Positions 1 through 4,966 of a stretch of 64,000 nucleotides of DNA are shown here, in pieces. Position numbers and translations under genes: made by a program. Position 1 is the first letter of the stretch, and the number at the start of each line of letters is the position of its first letter. The DNA comes from a virus. Lineage: Duplodnaviria > Heunggongvirae > Uroviricota > Caudoviricetes. Location of the stretch: positions 1 through 64,000 of the IMG/VR virus record IMGVR_UViG_3300021400_000141, one strand, 5' to 3'. The notes under the pieces were generated by a model. It did not search any database. It was given only the letters and a program-made list of their open reading frames with translations, and had not been told where the DNA came from.

Positions 1-29
1 CCCTGCCATTTCTTCTTGAATGTCTGCAT
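1..29 (-). CDS. 5' start of a cassette gene running off the window (MQTFKKKWQ...)
   Basis: ATG at 29 with GAGGT RBS, downstream of promoter 57-85. Confidence 0.6.
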
Positions 30-56
30 TGTTTTAACCTCGTTGTTGATACCTTT

Positions 57-85
57 AATATACCTAATTAAAAGCATCTTGTCAA
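57..85 (-). promoter_or_regulatory. sigma70-type early promoter
   Basis: TTGACA(85-80)-N17-TATATT(62-57). Confidence 0.85.
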
Positions 86-105
86 GCCCTAGCCATCATT
101 TTCTT

Positions 106-123
106 TGTAAACTTTCCTTTACA
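106..123. promoter_or_regulatory. Palindromic box TGTAAA-N6-TTTACA
   Basis: Perfect inverted repeat; recurs at 483-500 and 2779-2796, always 43 bp from the -10 hexamer. Confidence 0.75.
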
Positions 124-217
124 CACCACCCAACGAGGACAAGGGCTGCCACCCAGCCTCCTCCTGTCGCTCACGGTCAATAGGTGATAACCCAAGTTGA
201 ACATCGCTCCGAACACG

Positions 218-250
218 AGAGAAAGGGTCGCAACCATTCGGTCGCAACCC
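218..250 (-). terminator. Intrinsic terminator of cassette 1
   Basis: GGGUUGCGACC-GAAU-GGUUGCGACCC 11-bp stem (with G-U pairs) followed by UUUCUCUC. Confidence 0.75.
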
Positions 251-267
251 AACGATGAGAACAAGAG

Positions 268-405
268 TTACTTCGCTCCTGCCATTCCCAAGATACCCTC
301 CCACAATAGGACGAATACCATTACATAGGAAGCGAGCAGTCCGAAACCTTCGCAAAGGCTTTCAAGAAGACCCTTATCGTTCATCTTTTCGTTCTTGATA
401 TTCAT
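268..405 (-). CDS. 45-aa membrane peptide (cassette 1)
   Basis: GGAGGT RBS before ATG at 405; hydrophobic segment FGLLASYVMVFVLLWEGILG. Confidence 0.7.
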   Translation of the reverse strand: MNIKNEKMNDKGLLESLCEGFGLLASYVMVFVLLWEGILGMAGAK

Positions 406-433
406 TGTAGACCTCCGTTGTTGTTCTATATAT

Positions 434-500
434 AATATACCCAATTCATTCCAATTTGTCAATAGCATACCCAAACTTTTTGTGTAAACTTTCTGTTACA
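434..500 (-). promoter_or_regulatory. sigma70-type promoter plus upstream palindromic box
   Basis: TTGACA(462-457)-N17-TATATT(439-434); TGTAAA-N6-GTTACA at 483-500. Confidence 0.85.
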
Positions 501-612
501 AACTAGGTGCCAACATCGTTTCCAACCCTGACAAGAACCCCTGACCCTGATGACCGACGCCGGCTGCAGTCAGGACCAGGGTGATAACCCAAGTTGGAAT
601 CGGGGCGGCAAC

Positions 613-670
613 AAAGTTAAACCCCTAGGTCTAAACCTAGGGGATAAAACTAGGGGTTAAACCCTAGGGG
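613..670 (-). terminator. Hairpin/terminator of cassette 2 with CTAGGGG repeats
   Basis: CCCCTAGGT-CTAA-ACCTAGGGG stem plus two more CTAGGGG copies. Confidence 0.6.
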
Positions 671-682
671 AGACCACGATGA

Positions 683-811
683 CTACCTGCCCAAGCACTG
701 GAACATCGCCGTATGGCCGAACGCCAACGGAACCAAGTCCTTGAAGTAGCCTATCGCAGTCGGCTCGTATTCGCCTTTGCCGTTCTTCAAGTAGAGCATA
801 TACTTCTTCAT
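683..811 (-). CDS. 42-aa hypothetical peptide (MKKYMLYLKNGKGEYEP...)
   Basis: Translated by hand; ATGA overlap with upstream ORF. Confidence 0.6.
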   Translation of the reverse strand: MKKYMLYLKNGKGEYEPTAIGYFKDLVPLAFGHTAMFQCLGR

Positions 812-921
812 TTCGCTACCGCCTTTACTAGATAGATGAGACCGATGAGAGCATAGAGAAACATAACAGGTGGATAGAACACCGCTAGCAGAACTAGCAC
901 CACAAAGAGTATCAGTTTCAT
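808..921 (-). CDS. 37-aa hydrophobic membrane peptide (MKLILFVVLVLLAVFYPPVMFLYALIGLIYLVKAVAK)
   Basis: Translated by hand; ATGA coupling at both ends. Confidence 0.65.
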   Translation of the reverse strand: MKLILFVVLVLLAVFYPPVMFLYALIGLIYLVKAVAK

Positions 922-998
922 TTGCGACCCCCTTTGTAAATGCGTAAGCCCATTTTGATTGCGGTCAGTTTGTCTTTCGTTGTAGGTTTCTTTGCCAT
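918..998 (-). CDS. 26-aa basic micropeptide, TAxKMGLxI family (MAKKPTTKDKLTAIKMGLRIYKGGRK)
   Basis: GAGGT RBS, first gene after promoter 1025-1053, two paralogs in window. Confidence 0.75.
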   Translation of the reverse strand: MAKKPTTKDKLTAIKMGLRIYKGGRK

Positions 999-1024
999 TG
1001 TCTTACCTCGTTGTTTGTATCTAT

Positions 1025-1053
1025 AATATAGTTAATTAAATCTAGTTTGTCAA
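1025..1053 (-). promoter_or_regulatory. sigma70-type early promoter
   Basis: TTGACA-N17-TATATT. Confidence 0.85.
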
Positions 1054-1139
1054 GGGGGTGCAGCGATTTTTTTAACTGCCCGACGGAAGCTGCAGTCGAG
1101 CCATGGGTGATAACCTAAGTTGAACATCGGGCGGCAGAC

Positions 1140-1176
1140 AAAAAGATTGGCGGTATCATCAGACACCGCCTTTTTT
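1140..1176. terminator. Terminator of cassette 3 (possibly bidirectional)
   Basis: GGCGGT...ACCGCC stem flanked by A and T tracts. Confidence 0.6.
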
Positions 1177-1188
1177 GTGAAGCCAACA

Positions 1189-1584
1189 CTAGGACATTGC
1201 GACTTGTATCGTCTTATCCCTTATGACAGACAATGCGTCAGTCAGCATAGGAATAGTCCACGCAAGGTTCTTCTCGTCCAAGCAGGTAATATCATCAGTA
1301 AAGGTGTTTACCCTAAACCTATACACATAGACCTTTCTATGCCGTCCGTCCATAGGGATAGCCTTACACACAATAGTGAAAGCGAACTCATCTTCCCTTT
1401 CGGGGATATGTTCAAGCCCCCTTTCAGTATGATTGTAAAGGTCGAATAACTCCCTACCTACTGCGTCCATATCATATTCATCACGAATAATGTCAGCAAC
1501 ATTATTCAATTTGGAAACAATGTTGTCCAACATATTCAAGTTCATATCAGTTGCGATGAACTCTTTTGCTTTTCTCTTTGCCAT
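1189..1584 (-). CDS. Hypothetical protein (cassette 3)
   Basis: 131-aa ORF with GAGGT RBS and its own promoter. Confidence 0.8.
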   Translation of the reverse strand: MAKRKAKEFIATDMNLNMLDNIVSKLNNVADIIRDEYDMDAVGRELFDLYNHTERGLEHIPEREDEFAFTIVCKAIPMDGRHRKVYVYRFRVNTFTDDITCLDEKNLAWTIPMLTDALSVIRDKTIQVAMS

Positions 1585-1609
1585 AATATACCTCGTTGTT
1601 TCTACTATA

Positions 1610-1638
1610 AATATAGATAATTAAATCTAATTTGTCAA
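1610..1638 (-). promoter_or_regulatory. sigma70-type early promoter
   Basis: TTGACA-N17-TATATT. Confidence 0.85.
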
Positions 1639-1739
1639 GCACTTTTTTAACTTTTTGCTAGCGACAAACTCAGCAACACCTCCGTGCGGGCCCACAGTCA
1701 ATGGGTGATAACATAAGTTGAAACCGCAGATTAAAAAAT

Positions 1740-1772
1740 AAAAAAGGGTTTAACCCGTTGGGTCAAACCCTT
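1740..1772 (-). terminator. Terminator of cassette 4
   Basis: AAGGGTTTAACCC-GTT-GGGTCAAACCCTT stem, U-tract on minus strand. Confidence 0.75.
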
Positions 1773-1786
1773 CATTAGGGAGATGA

Positions 1787-2215
1787 TTAAAACTTAATCT
1801 TGTAGTAGGCGAGTGCCTTGTAAACGATGTCCACAAGTTCATTCTGAACCGCCTTGGCCGCAAGCCCCCGCTGCTTCTCGGTGTTGCGGTTGCACTCCGC
1901 TATGGTGCAGTTGCCACCACCGAACATCATACAGCGGTAGCCGAGGTCAGTGAGTTCAACGGGCGTGATGTTCAGGTAGTAGGAACTGGGGTAGTTGTGC
2001 CCGTCATAGAACGAGTGCCCGCCCTTGCGGTAGTTCACACTCATACGCAGTGCGTTGCAGTCGTCCGTTCCGCACCCCGTATCAACCTGCTGCATAGGGA
2101 ACGGGATAGTAATGTCCTTGTCGAACTTGACCTCAATGCCTTCACAAAGAGCCTGTGCCTTCTTGTAAAGGTCGCTAGAATAATCAACGGCAATGCCAAC
2201 ATTCATAATAGCCAT
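1787..2215 (-). CDS. Hypothetical protein (cassette 4)
   Basis: 142-aa ORF with AAGGAG RBS. Confidence 0.8.
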   Translation of the reverse strand: MAIMNVGIAVDYSSDLYKKAQALCEGIEVKFDKDITIPFPMQQVDTGCGTDDCNALRMSVNYRKGGHSFYDGHNYPSSYYLNITPVELTDLGYRCMMFGGGNCTIAECNRNTEKQRGLAAKAVQNELVDIVYKALAYYKIKF

Positions 2216-2235
2216 ATATCAACTCCTTTATCCCC

Positions 2236-2275
2236 TTGGCAACACCGCCTTGGGACACCCCTTAATATAGGGGGG
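2236..2275 (-). promoter_or_regulatory. 40-bp leader/promoter element duplicated at 4385-4424
   Basis: 39/40 identity between copies; contains TATATT inside a CCCCT...AGGGG stem; no -35 match. Confidence 0.7.
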
Positions 2276-2343
2276 GATACCTCCAGTGGAGGCGACTCTG
2301 GCGTGGGGTGATAACCCAAGTTGAAACCGAGAGGGGACCAGTG

Positions 2344-2374
2344 AAAAGGGAGCCTTACGGCTCCCTTTGTTTTT
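2344..2374. terminator. Terminator of cassette 5
   Basis: AAAGGGAGCC-TTAC-GGCTCCCTTT. Confidence 0.8.
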
Positions 2375-2392
2375 AAGCGGAGACCAACCGCC

Positions 2393-2578
2393 TTAAATCT
2401 TTTCCCACTTGTCGCGTTCTGCTTGCACCGCTAAGCCGCCCCAAGTGCCATGTATCTGCCCAATATCGTCTATGAGTTCAATCGTTCCGCTTTTGCCGTT
2501 ATATTGTGGCTCTCCAATCATTTCAATGATGCGGATTTTATCACCCACTTTTAAGCCCATTGTATTATGTTTTTCCAT
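2393..2578 (-). CDS. DUF4314-like small beta-barrel protein
   Basis: GDKIRIIEM...GKSGTIELIDDIGQIHGTWGGLA pattern. Confidence 0.7.
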   Translation of the reverse strand: MEKHNTMGLKVGDKIRIIEMIGEPQYNGKSGTIELIDDIGQIHGTWGGLAVQAERDKWEKI

Positions 2579-2595
2579 AACCTTTTTACTCCCTT

Positions 2596-2682
2596 TTATT
2601 TCTTGCTGAAAATGTTCAAGCCCATTTTCTTAGCAGTTATACGCCAAGTTTTTTCTTGCTTTGTAAGTTTGCTTTTTGCCAT
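2596..2682 (-). CDS. 28-aa basic micropeptide, TAxKMGLxI family (MAKSKLTKQEKTWRITAKKMGLNIFSKK)
   Basis: Translated by hand; GGAG/AGGG RBS; paralog of 918-998. Confidence 0.7.
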   Translation of the reverse strand: MAKSKLTKQEKTWRITAKKMGLNIFSKK

Positions 2683-2729
2683 AAATCCCTACTCCATTTT
2701 TATAGTGTCCAACATTAAACACTATACTA

Positions 2730-2796
2730 AATATAGTTAATTAAACACGAAAGCGTATATAGTTTTCTTAGAAATTTGTGTAAAGTTTCGTTTACA
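2730..2796 (-). promoter_or_regulatory. Promoter with -10 only plus palindromic box
   Basis: TATATT at 2735-2730, degenerate -35, TGTAAA-N6-TTTACA at 2779-2796. Confidence 0.65.
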
Positions 2797-2890
2797 AAAG
2801 AGAACAAAAACATCGTTCTGAAAGACCCTGATTTTTCGAAGCTGCAGTCATCGAAAAGGTGATAACGTAAGTTGGAAATTTCGTGACGAT

Positions 2891-2917
2891 AAAAAGAAAG
2901 GGAGACTTTCGTCTCCC
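2891..2917 (-). terminator. Terminator, duplicated at about 3071-3095
   Basis: GGGAGAC-TTTC-GTCTCCC stem in both copies, with A-tracts on the + strand. Confidence 0.8.
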
Positions 2918-2941
2918 ATTGTTAAAGGTGAATGTTGTTTT

Positions 2942-3013
2942 TTACTTACGGCGGGGAGAATAAATCTTCAATCCCATTTTAATTGCCGTAATTCTGTCTT
3001 TGTTAGTAGCCAT
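2942..3013 (-). CDS. 23-aa basic micropeptide, TAxKMGLxI family (MATNKDRITAIKMGLKIYSPRRK)
   Basis: Translated by hand; AGAGGT RBS; paralog of 918-998. Confidence 0.7.
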   Translation of the reverse strand: MATNKDRITAIKMGLKIYSPRRK

Positions 3014-3100
3014 AATTTTACCTCTTTGTTTGAGTGTTTGTTTTGTTTGTTTTGTTAAAAAGAAAAAGGAAAAGGGGAGACTTTCGTCTCCCCTTTGTTT

Positions 3101-4363
3101 TTAGAATTCACATTCTTCTTCATCGCTCTTTTTCTGAGAGTTATTCAGAAAATCGGCAACAAAGTGGAAAGCAGGATTTTCTTGGAGATTTTCACGAATA
3201 ATTGCCGCTTTCATAACTCCGTAAAGTTCCGTTTTAGAACCCATAATCGGAGTTCCGTCTGCGTTCATCGTTCCCGTAGGATAATCCTTATTAAGGAAAT
3301 CTTTCAAAGCAGAAATTTCAACATTGGAAATTACCTGCTTTTTGGAACGATTACGGAAACCGAAGAAAGTACACATTGCGTTAATTCCGACAACTGCGTC
3401 CGCCTGCGTTTTTACCAAAACTTTTCCGTTAAGGTAATCTTCGCCCGTAGGAATATCGAAAGTATTCACGAAAGTGATGAACTGCTTTGCGACTTTTTCC
3501 GAGCCCTCAAAATTGATATTCACGCACATTTTTGCGTCCTTATCAAAATTTTTGCTATCGTAGCCACGCAAAGAAAGTTCTTCCATAAGACTTTCGTAAG
3601 TGCGACCACAAGAGTTTCGCCCGTCATCGTTTTCGTCGCAAATGTTCAAATCCGCAAGATACTTATCGGTGAACTTTTTCCAAAAATCCGAAATAATCGG
3701 ATTTGCCATAACCGCCGCCTTTACGCAGGCGTCCTCATAGACCAATTCCAAAGAATCAAATCTTCCGTTCGGGCCGACAAGAGCCGCAGAAATTTCAGAA
3801 GTCTGACCCTCAAAGCCCTCTCTATCGCACCCATTATATGCGATAAAGAAATTTGTATCGTTGTGAAGTTTGAAATTCTTCACAACCTTATCCAAAGCCA
3901 CGCAAAGAAAAGTTTGCTGAACCGCACTTTTTGCGGCAGAAAATTCGTCCAAGAGAACGACTGCCGCGTGGGCTTCGGGCATTCCCTTCTTGTTGTACCA
4001 AATCGGGTAGCCTTTGGTGCTATCGTTAGTCACCACCTTATCGCCCGTAGCAGGGTCTACCCTGTAATACGGGAGCCAAGGCGGGATTTCGTCCTGCCCG
4101 CTGATTTCAAGGTCGCCCTTTTCGGTCTTACGGCCCTTGTAGGCAAAGCCTACAACATCGGCAGCATTAACCCACTGGTTAATGCTTACGGTGATAAGGG
4201 GCAACTCCCAATCCGTAGCAAGACTGCGGACAACGGAAGTCTTGCCCATGCCCGGCGCCCCTTCAAGGGCGAAGGACTTACGGGCGTGCCAAACAGTGCC
4301 GTCCCCGAGAACCTTGCGACGGCCATTGGCCAACATCTTAAACTGACTTGCTGTAACTTTCAT
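3101..4363 (-). CDS. MoxR-like AAA+ ATPase (cassette 6)
   Basis: Walker A GAPGMGKT, Walker B VVLLDE, sensor N (IAYN), AL...GRF arginine-finger region. Confidence 0.85.
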   Translation of the reverse strand: MKVTASQFKMLANGRRKVLGDGTVWHARKSFALEGAPGMGKTSVVRSLATDWELPLITVSINQWVNAADVVGFAYKGRKTEKGDLEISGQDEIPPWLPYYRVDPATGDKVVTNDSTKGYPIWYNKKGMPEAHAAVVLLDEFSAAKSAVQQTFLCVALDKVVKNFKLHNDTNFFIAYNGCDREGFEGQTSEISAALVGPNGRFDSLELVYEDACVKAAVMANPIISDFWKKFTDKYLADLNICDENDDGRNSCGRTYESLMEELSLRGYDSKNFDKDAKMCVNINFEGSEKVAKQFITFVNTFDIPTGEDYLNGKVLVKTQADAVVGINAMCTFFGFRNRSKKQVISNVEISALKDFLNKDYPTGTMNADGTPIMGSKTELYGVMKAAIIRENLQENPAFHFVADFLNNSQKKSDEEECEF

Positions 4364-4461
4364 TGTGTCATCTCCTTTGTCCCTTTGGCAACATCGCCTT
4401 GGGACACCCCTTAATATAGGGGGGCATCGACGCCATCTCGTATGGGTGATAACCTAAGTTG

Positions 4462-4910
4462 GAGCGTAGGGGGTCGTTTTAGGGGGTGGCGCGTATAGGG
4501 TATAGGGGTGGGGTAATTTGATATTTGATAAGCGCGGTACTTTTCTTTTTTTATTTCCTAGGGTTTCAACCAGGGGTTTCCAACAGGGGTTGGAACCAGG
4601 GGGTTTCCAACCATGTCTCGAACCCCCGCTCCCACCCATGTTTCGGGACAGGGTTCGGGACACGGTGTCTCGAACACATGTCCGCACCCAGGAATCGGGA
4701 CAGCAGGCGCCCGCTCCCACCAATGTTTCAACATGAAACACACAAGTTATCAACAGGATATCAACACCTCATCAAAAAATCAAAATGCAAAACTGGGGGC
4801 AGAAAAATAGAAAAAATAAATAAAAGCCCCTATCATACCCTTTAAAAAATTTTTGGTAGGGGGGTATATACAGGGGTGTAAAAATTTTTTGGGGGTGGGG
4901 GTATGTCAAA
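4462..4910. other. Structured non-coding block (candidate origin or genome-end/packaging region)
   Basis: G-runs alternating with A/T tracts, GGGTTTC(C)AAC x3, CCCGCTCCCACC x2, TCGGGACA x3, DnaA-box-like TTATCAACA at 4747-4755. Confidence 0.5.
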
Positions 4911-4966
4911 CTAAAGAAATAACCGTATCGAATTCGACACGGTTAAAGCAGTTAATTGGATTAGGT

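What the first reader, a model, noticed from the sequence alone, without database searches (positions are those of the whole stretch)
1..4461. Integron-like array of self-contained gene cassettes delimited by a 17-bp site
Seen: GGTGATAACNYAAGTTG occurs 7 times, co-oriented (183, 580, 1106, 1704, 2307, 2858, 4445; spacings 397, 526, 598, 603, 551 and 1587 bp). Every interval holds a complete minus-strand unit of promoter element, gene(s) and terminator, and a further unit runs off the left edge. I saw no full copy in the other 59.5 kb. The site can be read as arm-TAA / 6-bp spacer CNYAAG / TTG-arm, with the only variable bases in the spacer. Known: this resembles tyrosine-recombinase core sites (dif has ATAA-6 bp-TTAT; integron cores are GTTRRRY, matched by GTTGAAC in sites 1 and 3), but it is neither dif nor attC. 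Inference: a phage cassette-shuffling system for early host-takeover or anti-defence genes. The alternative is a repeated protein-binding or DNA-entry signal; the reverse strand contains TATCACC, a lambda-operator-like half-site. No recombinase is in this window.
Basis: partly seen in the sequence, partly recalled or inferred. Interest (0 to 1): 0.9.

Follow-up and report, generated by a model that had tools for sequence, protein, structure and literature searches.

The report
Boundary-marked early-gene block in jumbo phage
A giant gut phage keeps about 70 small, likely early-acting genes in one 38-kb row of 40 units, separated by 41 copies of one DNA site; gene order is kept across relatives and no recombinase was found, so the site is likely a protein docking point that helps end one transcript and start the next, in what is probably the first DNA to enter the cell, and not an integron.

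Summary
The seven copies are real. They are the last 7 of 41 co-oriented copies in one 38-kb block that crosses the contig join of a 419-kb T4-like jumbo phage; no copy lies outside the block. Six related phage records carry the same block.

The integron reading fails. Gene order is collinear (Kendall tau 0.91-1.0 against four relatives), no recombinase was found, exchanges are spread over the whole intergenic module, and an outgroup keeps the site's position but loses the dif-like arms.

What is conserved is geometry. The site lies about 25 nt past the terminator stem (163 of 171 called terminators fall within a 4-nt range) and 35-37 nt above promoters that lack a -35 box. Depth in one run is about 1.6-fold higher over the block and drops at its edge, and units lengthen away from that edge. 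This suggests a ~39-kb terminal repeat that enters the cell first (T5/SPO1-like).

Best model: a PeSL-like early module with an extra polar protein-binding site that stops RNA polymerase at each terminator and activates the -35-less promoters. The binding protein is unknown.

The parts
183..199 (+). boundary site, copy 35 of 41
580..596 (+). boundary site, copy 36
1106..1122 (+). boundary site, copy 37
1704..1720 (+). boundary site, copy 38
2307..2323 (+). boundary site, copy 39; 37 nt above a -35-less promoter
2858..2874 (+). boundary site, copy 40
4445..4461 (+). boundary site, copy 41, first in the direction of transcription; no terminator before it; 26 nt above a -35-less promoter
57..85 (-). 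class I sigma70-type promoter (TTGACA-17-TATATT) of the unit that runs over the contig join
106..123 (.). TGTAAA-N6-TTTACA-type palindrome about 20 nt above the -35 box (27 of 39 array promoters, 2 of 41 outside)
225..250 (-). intrinsic terminator, stem ends 25 nt before the site
268..405 (-). 45-aa ORF, conserved in four relatives (start inferred from ribosome site and orthologue)
434..462 (-). class I promoter, with palindrome at 483-500
622..643 (-). intrinsic terminator, 25 nt before the site
683..998 (-). three small ORFs (918-998, 808-921, 683-811; 26, 37 and 42 aa)
1025..1053 (-). class I promoter
1149..1170 (-). intrinsic terminator, 26 nt before the site
1189..1584 (-). 131-aa ORF, no family above cut-off
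1610..1638 (-). class I promoter
1743..1773 (-). intrinsic terminator, 25 nt before the site
1787..2215 (-). 142-aa ORF, no family
2263..2272 (-). class II promoter candidate (C-run then TATATT, no -35 box)
2345..2368 (.). terminator hairpin, 24 nt before the site on the minus strand; also callable on +
2393..2682 (-). 28-aa basic peptide (2596-2682) and 61-aa DUF4314 protein (2393-2578)
2730..2796 (-). -10 box (2730-2735) and palindrome (2779-2796), no -35 match
2900..2917 (-). intrinsic terminator, 25 nt before the site
2942..3013 (-). 23-aa basic peptide, paralogue of 918-998 and 2596-2682
3071..3096 (.). internal bidirectional terminator; the one array terminator called without a site behind it
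3101..4363 (-). 420-aa AAA+ ATPase (phrog_1297), first gene of the block in all five records that reach this end
4412..4421 (-). class II promoter candidate of the ATPase unit
4462..4960 (.). conserved non-coding flank: 13-14-bp tandem repeats like the site's second half (reverse orientation), a TTATCAACA-type box pair (4746-4765) and A-tracts; inferred edge of the over-represented block

Best explanation
The 17-23-bp site is likely a polar docking site for one sequence-specific DNA-binding protein, placed in the gap between 40 small promoter-gene-terminator units that form a probable early host-takeover block, probably a ~39-kb terminal repeat that enters the cell first. Shown: the number, orientation and confinement of the sites, the unit anatomy, the fixed terminator-to-site spacing in two lineages, the fixed site-to-promoter spacing at promoters lacking a -35 box, the conserved gene order, and the gradient of unit length. 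Inferred: (1) the block is a terminal repeat injected from the window-4.5-kb end; (2) host RNA polymerase transcribes each unit inward from near-perfect promoters; (3) the bound protein sits just ahead of a polymerase paused on the terminator U-tract and acts as a roadblock that tightens termination and insulates the next unit; (4) at -35-less promoters the same protein sits near -60 and recruits or hands on polymerase; (5) as a by-product, the repeated modules give short homology for the phage's own UvsX-type recombination, which swaps flanks and genes as PeSLs do. The protein is not identified.
For: 41 sites, all on one strand, all in one block, none elsewhere. The same promoter occurs 41 times outside the block and 71 terminator-like calls lie outside, none with the site, so the site marks the block and not early units in general. 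Terminator stem to ATCACC core is 35-38 nt in 163 of 171 sites with a called terminator (201 sites in seven records; 30 had no call), while the bases in between vary and the distance to class I promoters ranges 51-117 nt (161 sites). Outgroup G006 (capsid 88% identical) has 13 co-oriented variant sites in the same register, 33 nt past the stem in 7 of 10 called and 35-37 nt above a -35-less promoter in 7 of 13. In the G000 clade that distance is 35-37 in 9 of 13 and 26-27, one helical turn less, in 4 of 13. Order: tau 0.98, 0.91, 1.00 and 1.00 for G000 against G001, G002, G003 and G005, at 60-91% median protein identity. Unit length falls towards the window end (rho -0.69 to -0.81), as described from a fixed genome end in phage 0305phi8-36 (PMC2147016). 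Run X1 depth: 429-454 on the eight longest pieces inside the block, 312 on the piece across the edge, 276 on a 32-kb piece outside; implied step at 4.2-4.4 kb. Precedent for polar intergenic sites that stop elongation: stoperators (PMC9283540). Precedent for roadblocks acting on polymerase after termination: PMC11364550.
Against: No binding protein was identified. The one array-encoded winged-helix protein was not found in G006, which keeps the site (record 66% complete, search without positive control). Gene-free mini-units of 93-119 bp keep near-perfect sites with no clear terminator or promoter in four distinct sequences, and the first site has no terminator, so the site has value apart from termination. 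One array terminator (3071-3096) has no site. In the G000 clade 161 of 174 classified promoters are class I, where the site is at no fixed distance, and helical phasing there is weak (R about 0.2, non-independent sites). The depth step rests on one run that may be the source of the assembly, on contig-mean depths that the tool warns are not copy numbers, and the ratio is 1.6, not 2. The cargo is mostly of unknown function, so 'host takeover' is by analogy.
Confidence: 0.5

Rival explanations
1. DNA-entry ratchet, anchor or end-protection signal: the site is bound as each stretch of the leading terminal repeat enters the cell, and holds or paces DNA that polymerase pulls in unit by unit. The box clusters in both flanks act like the T5 injection-stop signal or as terminus signals.
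For: Strict polarity and confinement to the over-represented block. Sites are densest at the inferred leading end. Gene-free mini-units keep their sites. The two 300-bp bins richest in half-site-like words are the two flanks (9 and 7 against a mean of 0.35; pattern chosen after seeing the flanks). The flanks carry TTATCAACA-type box pairs like the variant DnaA boxes of the T5 injection-stop region (10.1101/866236).
Against: It does not by itself explain the fixed spacing to -35-less promoters. No such boxes were found at G006 33-37 kb. The T5 paper is an in-silico proposal. The site itself differs from the DnaA-box consensus at two or more positions per half (comparison by eye).
Confidence: 0.2
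2. PeSL-type homology only: the site has no binding partner and is kept uniform because it is the preferred crossover point for homologous exchange and gene conversion between units.
For: The site is the longest exact match between non-allelic modules in 603 of 820 pairs (median 18 bp). 7 of 18 informative sites have flanks from two different partner sites. G000 site 13 matches one partner 59 of 60 on the left and another 57 of 60 on the right. The phage encodes RecA/UvsX, a UvsW-like helicase and a RuvC-like nuclease.
Against: Conversion would homogenise the neighbouring bases too, but they vary in sequence and not in length. It does not explain spacing conserved in the outgroup. Switches are not enriched at the site.
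Confidence: 0.12
3. Strand-specific nick site or RNA-processing signal: the site is nicked in virion DNA (as in T5; recalled), or it is cut in read-through RNA just past the terminator.
For: Polar, intergenic and near-invariant. Within the clade most variation falls in the 4 nt between AAC and GTT, which could be a small loop.
Against: Only a 3-bp stem is possible and folding z-scores are weak (mean -0.5 to -0.8). The AAC/GTT symmetry is lost in G006. No Rfam match in the array. The phage's own CRISPR repeat is unrelated.
Confidence: 0.07
4. Site-specific recombination array: a phage or host tyrosine recombinase excises and re-inserts units at the site.
For: Direct orientation, a 6-bp centre between TAA and TTG, whole-unit gains and losses and empty units, and several chimeras that switch at the site.
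Against: Collinear order. Genes move between units rather than units moving: G000 and G002 share 6 of 14 and 20 same-unit gene pairs. No recombinase found. The 20-bp form of the site was found in no bacterial chromosome among 185,579 species; all 27 stretches are phage arrays. Arms not conserved in G006. In X1 the listed array pieces have uniform depth and the listed joints are full-depth repeat mismappings; 66 joints were not shown.
Confidence: 0.06
5. Polar replication-fork barrier or replication signal at the terminus; the depth excess reflects local over-replication or a block-sized circle.
For: The cumulative GC-skew maximum (396,216) lies in the block, opposite the minimum (204,594). Both flanks carry iteron-like or DnaA-box-like clusters.
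Against: A fork trap needs two opposed sets, and these sites are all one way. Gene-strand bias explains the skew. It gives no reason for fixed spacing to terminators and promoters.
Confidence: 0.05

Closest known systems
PeSL (promoter-early stem-loop) cassettes of T4-type phages (PMC2839356, PMC4122927)
   Same: Terminator hairpin, AT-rich stretch, near-perfect sigma70 promoter and ribosome site repeated between small unknown ORFs in a T4-like phage; gains, losses and swaps at the repeated module; no dedicated recombinase.
   Different: In the parts read, PeSLs lie in several hyperplastic regions and have no invariant site between terminator and promoter. Here 40 units form one uninterrupted, co-oriented 38-kb block with a 17-23-bp site at fixed spacing, a second palindrome and a length gradient.
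Terminal-repeat pre-early / host-takeover modules of T5, SPO1, phage K and 0305phi8-36 (10.1101/866236, PMC2147016, PMC6022877)
   Same: A block of small genes on short transcripts, small-to-large gradient from one end, raised read depth, conserved non-coding repeat regions with DnaA-box-like pairs.
   Different: Those repeats or regions are 8.5-11.5 kb in the papers read; this block is about 39 kb. No site between every unit is described in the passages read. Terminal redundancy here is inferred from one run.
Stoperators of cluster A mycobacteriophages (PMC9283540)
   Same: More than twenty asymmetric intergenic sites oriented with transcription and proposed to halt elongating polymerase when bound.
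   Different: Stoperators are 13-mers spread across a temperate genome and bound by the immunity repressor. These sites are confined to one block, sit directly behind intrinsic terminators, and no repressor or integrase was found.
Integrons (attC/attI with IntI) and Xer/dif or pdif modules (features recalled)
   Same: Tandem gene units separated by a repeated site in direct orientation.
   Different: No integrase; no attC-type long hairpin; units carry their own promoters; order conserved; arms not conserved; no host chromosomal copy found.

Membership tests
Integron | IntI tyrosine recombinase gene linked to the array | tested here: not met
   No PF00589 match at E<=1 in G000, G001, G002, G003 or G006; 14 of 14 controls ring
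Integron | attC sites: long imperfect palindromes folding as single-strand hairpins | tested here: not met
   Site with 40-nt flank folds at mean z -0.5 and -0.8 over 87 sites; only a 3-bp AAC/GTT symmetry
Integron | Cassettes excised and re-inserted, so order differs between relatives | tested here: not met
   Kendall tau 0.91-1.0 in 8 of 9 computable pairs; 0.64 for G002 against the 13-kb G005 fragment
Xer/dif-type site | Two conserved arms around a 6-bp overlap, ending TAA and starting TT | tested here: not met
   G006 keeps register and spacing but reads TGG for TAA and degenerates the other arm
Xer/dif-type site | Matches the host's own dif | tested here: inconclusive
   Exact 20-bp form absent from bacterial chromosomes in the species collection; host unknown, mismatches not searched
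PeSL cassettes | Terminator stem-loop upstream of a sigma70 early promoter and ribosome site, repeated between small ORFs | tested here: met
   Terminator called at 131 and class I promoter at 123 of 156 sites
PeSL cassettes | Indels and exchanges between relatives map to the repeated module | tested here: met
   8 partner switches in 86 informative junctions, spread from gene start to terminator; whole-unit and gene-level indels
PeSL cassettes | Low-copy mini-circles from module-to-module crossover | not testable with these tools
   Only assembled contigs were available, and these drop rare forms
Terminal-repeat early module (T5/SPO1 type) | Region duplicated at the virion ends, seen as raised read depth with sharp edges | tested here: inconclusive
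Terminal-repeat early module (T5/SPO1 type) | Short units with strong host promoters, growing in length from the genome end | tested here: met
   rho -0.79, -0.69 and -0.81 in G000, G001 and G002; 39 of 80 class I promoters lie in 9% of the genome
Stoperator system | Asymmetric intergenic sites oriented with transcription | tested here: met
   41 of 41 in G000; 13 of 13 in G006
Stoperator system | Cognate phage immunity repressor that binds the site and halts elongation | tested here: inconclusive
   No repressor family among 414 scanned of 547 predicted proteins; binding cannot be tested here

The most novel reading that the evidence does not exclude
A ~39-kb terminal repeat, three to four times those of T5, SPO1 and phage K, is built as a relay: one DNA-bound factor at 41 polar sites catches RNA polymerase at each terminator and passes it to the next promoter, so that transcription both expresses about 70 takeover genes in a fixed order and ratchets the genome into the cell step by step.
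Probability: 0.15. Interest if true: 0.85.

Novelty: new variant of a known kind. Interest (0 to 1): 0.52.

Why it matters
If true, it adds a third, protein-bound element to the known terminator-promoter cassette and gives a testable case of terminators reinforced by a factor at fixed spacing. It would also mark out the first-entering DNA of an uncultured family of about 420-kb gut phages, with about 70 mostly unknown early genes as candidates for host takeover and anti-defence. More distant relatives build similar arrays with different repeated motifs, so the family allows the binding proteins to be found by comparison. It is not a new integron. Earlier scan notes describe comparable boundary motifs in unrelated phages, so the layout is recurrent rather than unique.

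Tried and rejected
Recombinase searches: none found (Pfam on 414 of 547 predicted proteins, most ORFs under 95 aa not scanned). Host chromosomal copies of the site: none in the exact 20-bp scan. Single-match viral contigs: 15 of 16 tested loci had no similarity to G000 and were dropped as chance. CRISPR-repeat reading: the phage's own array has an unrelated repeat, and its 7 spacers hit only their own locus among the sequences held. Rfam: nothing in the array. Hairpin in the GC-rich flank: z near 0. Phasing of all unit lengths: R<=0.24. Winged-helix protein of unit 3 as binder: model pLDDT 72.5, best Foldseek hit E 0.004 to winged helices, not found in five outgroup records. Last array gene in the ESM Atlas: leads under 0.9 only. 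Contig ends as physical termini: 4 of 14 related metagenome loci end within 700 bp of the near flank, at different places, so not used. RNA runs hold pieces of array genes at low depth and cannot show ends or strand, so not used. Restriction-site avoidance is genome-wide, not specific to the block. Host not identified: the two MAG labels are probably mis-binning (sigma70-type promoters are atypical for those taxa; own knowledge). Circles: not detectable in contigs. No protein-complex prediction was run.

Full report
Observation. The seven copies are at the stated places, all on the + strand, against 0.89 expected at up to three mismatches. The window is the start of a 419,423-bp record with a short terminal overlap. 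Across the join the motif occurs 41 times in 38,059 bp (G000 385,719 to window 4,461), always on +, and nowhere else at two mismatches. A weight matrix finds exactly these 41 above 14 bits. The genome is a T4-like jumbo phage: T4-type portal and capsid protein, RecA/UvsX, a sigma factor and 38 tRNAs. Its capsid protein is only about 30% identical to the best cultured phage. Runs that hold the window are mostly sheep, goat and cattle gut metagenomes. The host was not identified.

Relatives. The exact motif found arrays in viral records G001 (39 sites), G002 (46; complete; G004 is the same array and was left out of counts), G003 (22, partial) and G005 (8, partial). The species-genome scan gave 27 stretches, all from three contigs in two metagenome-assembled records that carry the same phage array (37 and 8 sites) and none from a chromosome. 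That makes 201 sites in seven records. A flank anchor gave 18 metagenome loci: 4 unrelated, 14 related, and 12 of these reach the array and show the last site 68-70 nt from the anchor.

Anatomy. Read in the direction of transcription (minus strand), each unit ends in an intrinsic terminator. Then follow about 25 variable bases, the site, a GC-rich unstructured stretch, and the next promoter. The distance from terminator stem to the ATCACC core is 35-38 nt in 163 of 171 sites with a called terminator; 30 of 201 had no call. The distance to the usual promoter (class I, TTGACA-17-TATATT) runs from 51 to 117 nt (161 sites). Class I promoters number 80 in the genome, 39 of them in the block. The 41 outside have no site, and only 2 of them have the palindrome found above 27 of 39 array promoters. 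Of 71 terminator-like calls outside the block none is followed by the site, against 32 of 34 minus-strand calls inside. Thirteen units have a promoter candidate without a -35 box (class II); the site lies 35-37 nt above its -10 box in 9 and 26-27 nt above it in 4. That places the site centre near -57 to -60, about where class I activators bind (position recalled). A 25-nt gap after the stem is about the U-tract plus the downstream footprint of polymerase (recalled).

Outgroup. G006 (capsid 88% identical) lacks the 17-mer at three mismatches but shares array genes, four of five in the same order. It has 13 co-oriented variant sites, and all 12 exact matches of the 10-base core in its 277 kb lie in this block. 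They align in register with the G000 site, keep ATCACCC, and lose the TAA and TTG arms. They lie 33 nt past the stem in 7 of 10 called terminators and 35-37 nt above a class II promoter in 7 of 13. The ancestral module therefore looks like terminator, site, -35-less promoter, with both spacings under selection. More distant relatives (capsid 68-70%) have dense arrays at contig ends with other motifs that sit in the -35 position: 26 copies in the last 20 kb of G008, 20 in G010 and 13 in G007; G009 shows no such array in the 80 kb examined.

Test of shuffling. Shared single-copy genes keep their order: tau 0.98 (49 genes), 0.91 (42), 1.00 (22) and 1.00 (14) for G000 against G001, G002, G003 and G005, at median identities of 79, 60, 91 and 78%; the lowest value is 0.64 for G002 against the G005 fragment. 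The first and last units are fixed. Change is mostly at gene level: G000 and G002 share only 6 of their 14 and 20 same-unit gene pairs. Whole units are also gained and lost, and empty units exist. Exchange at the site does happen: 7 of 18 informative sites draw their flanks from two partner sites; two of the seven are ambiguous on inspection, and one is sharp, 59 of 60 bases on one side and 57 of 60 on the other. But partner switches are spread along the module, 2 of 12 at the site and 6 of 74 elsewhere (p=0.31); the counts are small. No tyrosine, resolvase-type or large serine recombinase was found in G000, no tyrosine recombinase in four relatives, and none among 414 of 547 predicted proteins scanned. 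This matches PeSL-type exchange by general recombination (PMC2839356: passages and section 16; PMC4122927: parts 1-2 of 3).

Genome position. Units lengthen from about 550 bp near the window end to 1.5-3 kb at the far end (rho -0.69 to -0.81, last unit excluded). PMC2147016 (passages and section 19) describes such a gradient from a fixed genome end and links it to order of injection. In run X1 the eight longest array pieces have depth 429-454, the piece across the edge 312, and a 32-kb piece outside 276. This fits a step at 4.2-4.4 kb and a ratio near 1.6. Raised depth is how terminal repeats were found in K-like phages (PMC6022877, passages). The evidence is one run, probably the source of the assembly, and contig-mean depth, so it is a hint. 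Both flanks are non-coding and conserved, with tandem words like half of the site and TTATCAACA-type box pairs. The same variant box is described in the T5 injection-stop region (10.1101/866236: parts 1-2 of 6 and passages; an in-silico proposal; supplements not seen).

Cargo. About 70 ORFs, mostly without a family. Named ones: two SpoVG-like proteins, DUF932, GP88, DUF1281, DUF4314, a winged-helix protein and an AAA+ ATPase. PADLOC gave only weak ATPase-level hits among 9 array proteins tested. An anti-defence role is not shown.

Mechanism and limits. The simplest account of a polar, near-invariant site with two conserved spacings is a bound protein that blocks polymerase at the terminator and, where the promoter lacks a -35 box, recruits it. 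Stoperators show that oriented intergenic sites can halt elongation (PMC9283540, passages), and roadblocks affect polymerase after termination (PMC11364550, passages). Against a purely transcriptional role, gene-free mini-units of 93-119 bp keep their sites in four distinct sequences, which leaves room for an entry or anchoring role. The binder is unknown; the winged-helix candidate was not found in G006.

Novelty. Nine paper searches found PeSLs, terminal-repeat modules and stoperators, but no description of this phage group or site; most subscription papers are outside the library. Earlier scan notes report comparable boundary motifs in unrelated phages (unchecked). Verdict: a real and larger feature than reported, a new variant of the PeSL/early-module kind, and not an integron.

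Noticed in passing
G000 337,951-341,280 (L118:3951-9280): Phage-encoded type I-Fv-like CRISPR-Cas locus (Cas3, Cas7fv, one unassigned ORF, Cas6-like) followed by 8 degenerate repeats with 7 spacers of 34-35 nt; no Cas1/Cas2 seen in the scans; spacer targets not found among held sequences.
   Followed up: partly
window 918-998, 2596-2682, 2942-3013: Three paralogous basic peptides of 23-28 aa sharing a KMGL motif, in three units near the leading end; two or more such peptides in each of five records that reach this end.
   Followed up: partly
L001:10254-10748 (G000 390,254-390,748, minus): Winged-helix (HTH_39) protein with a lysine-rich tail ending in QLELF, which resembles the bacterial sliding-clamp binding motif (recalled); a possible replication inhibitor.
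   Followed up: partly
L400 (G008 end), L403 (G010 end), L395 (G007 end): Distant relatives have dense early-type arrays in which a lineage-specific 13-17-bp motif replaces the -35 box before nearly every gene, suggesting phage-activated promoters.
   Followed up: partly
L095 (G002, about 416.6-417.1 kb); L410, L412, L418: Runs of gene-free mini-units with sites 93, 104-105 and 115-119 bp apart, close to whole helical turns; the 141-bp empty unit of G000 is not in phase.
   Followed up: partly
whole genome G000: GATC is entirely absent (0 observed against about 1,577 expected) and GTCGAC is absent, indicating strong restriction-site avoidance.
   Followed up: no
G000 300-310 kb and 89-95 kb: Cluster of 36 of the 38 tRNA genes; NAD salvage and synthesis genes; also Thg1, RtcB, IF3 and ClpX homologues elsewhere.
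   Followed up: no
L390-L391 (G006 8-27 kb): More than 20 copies of a short repeat in apparent coding sequence, probably a family of repeat proteins inserted among the early genes.
   Followed up: no
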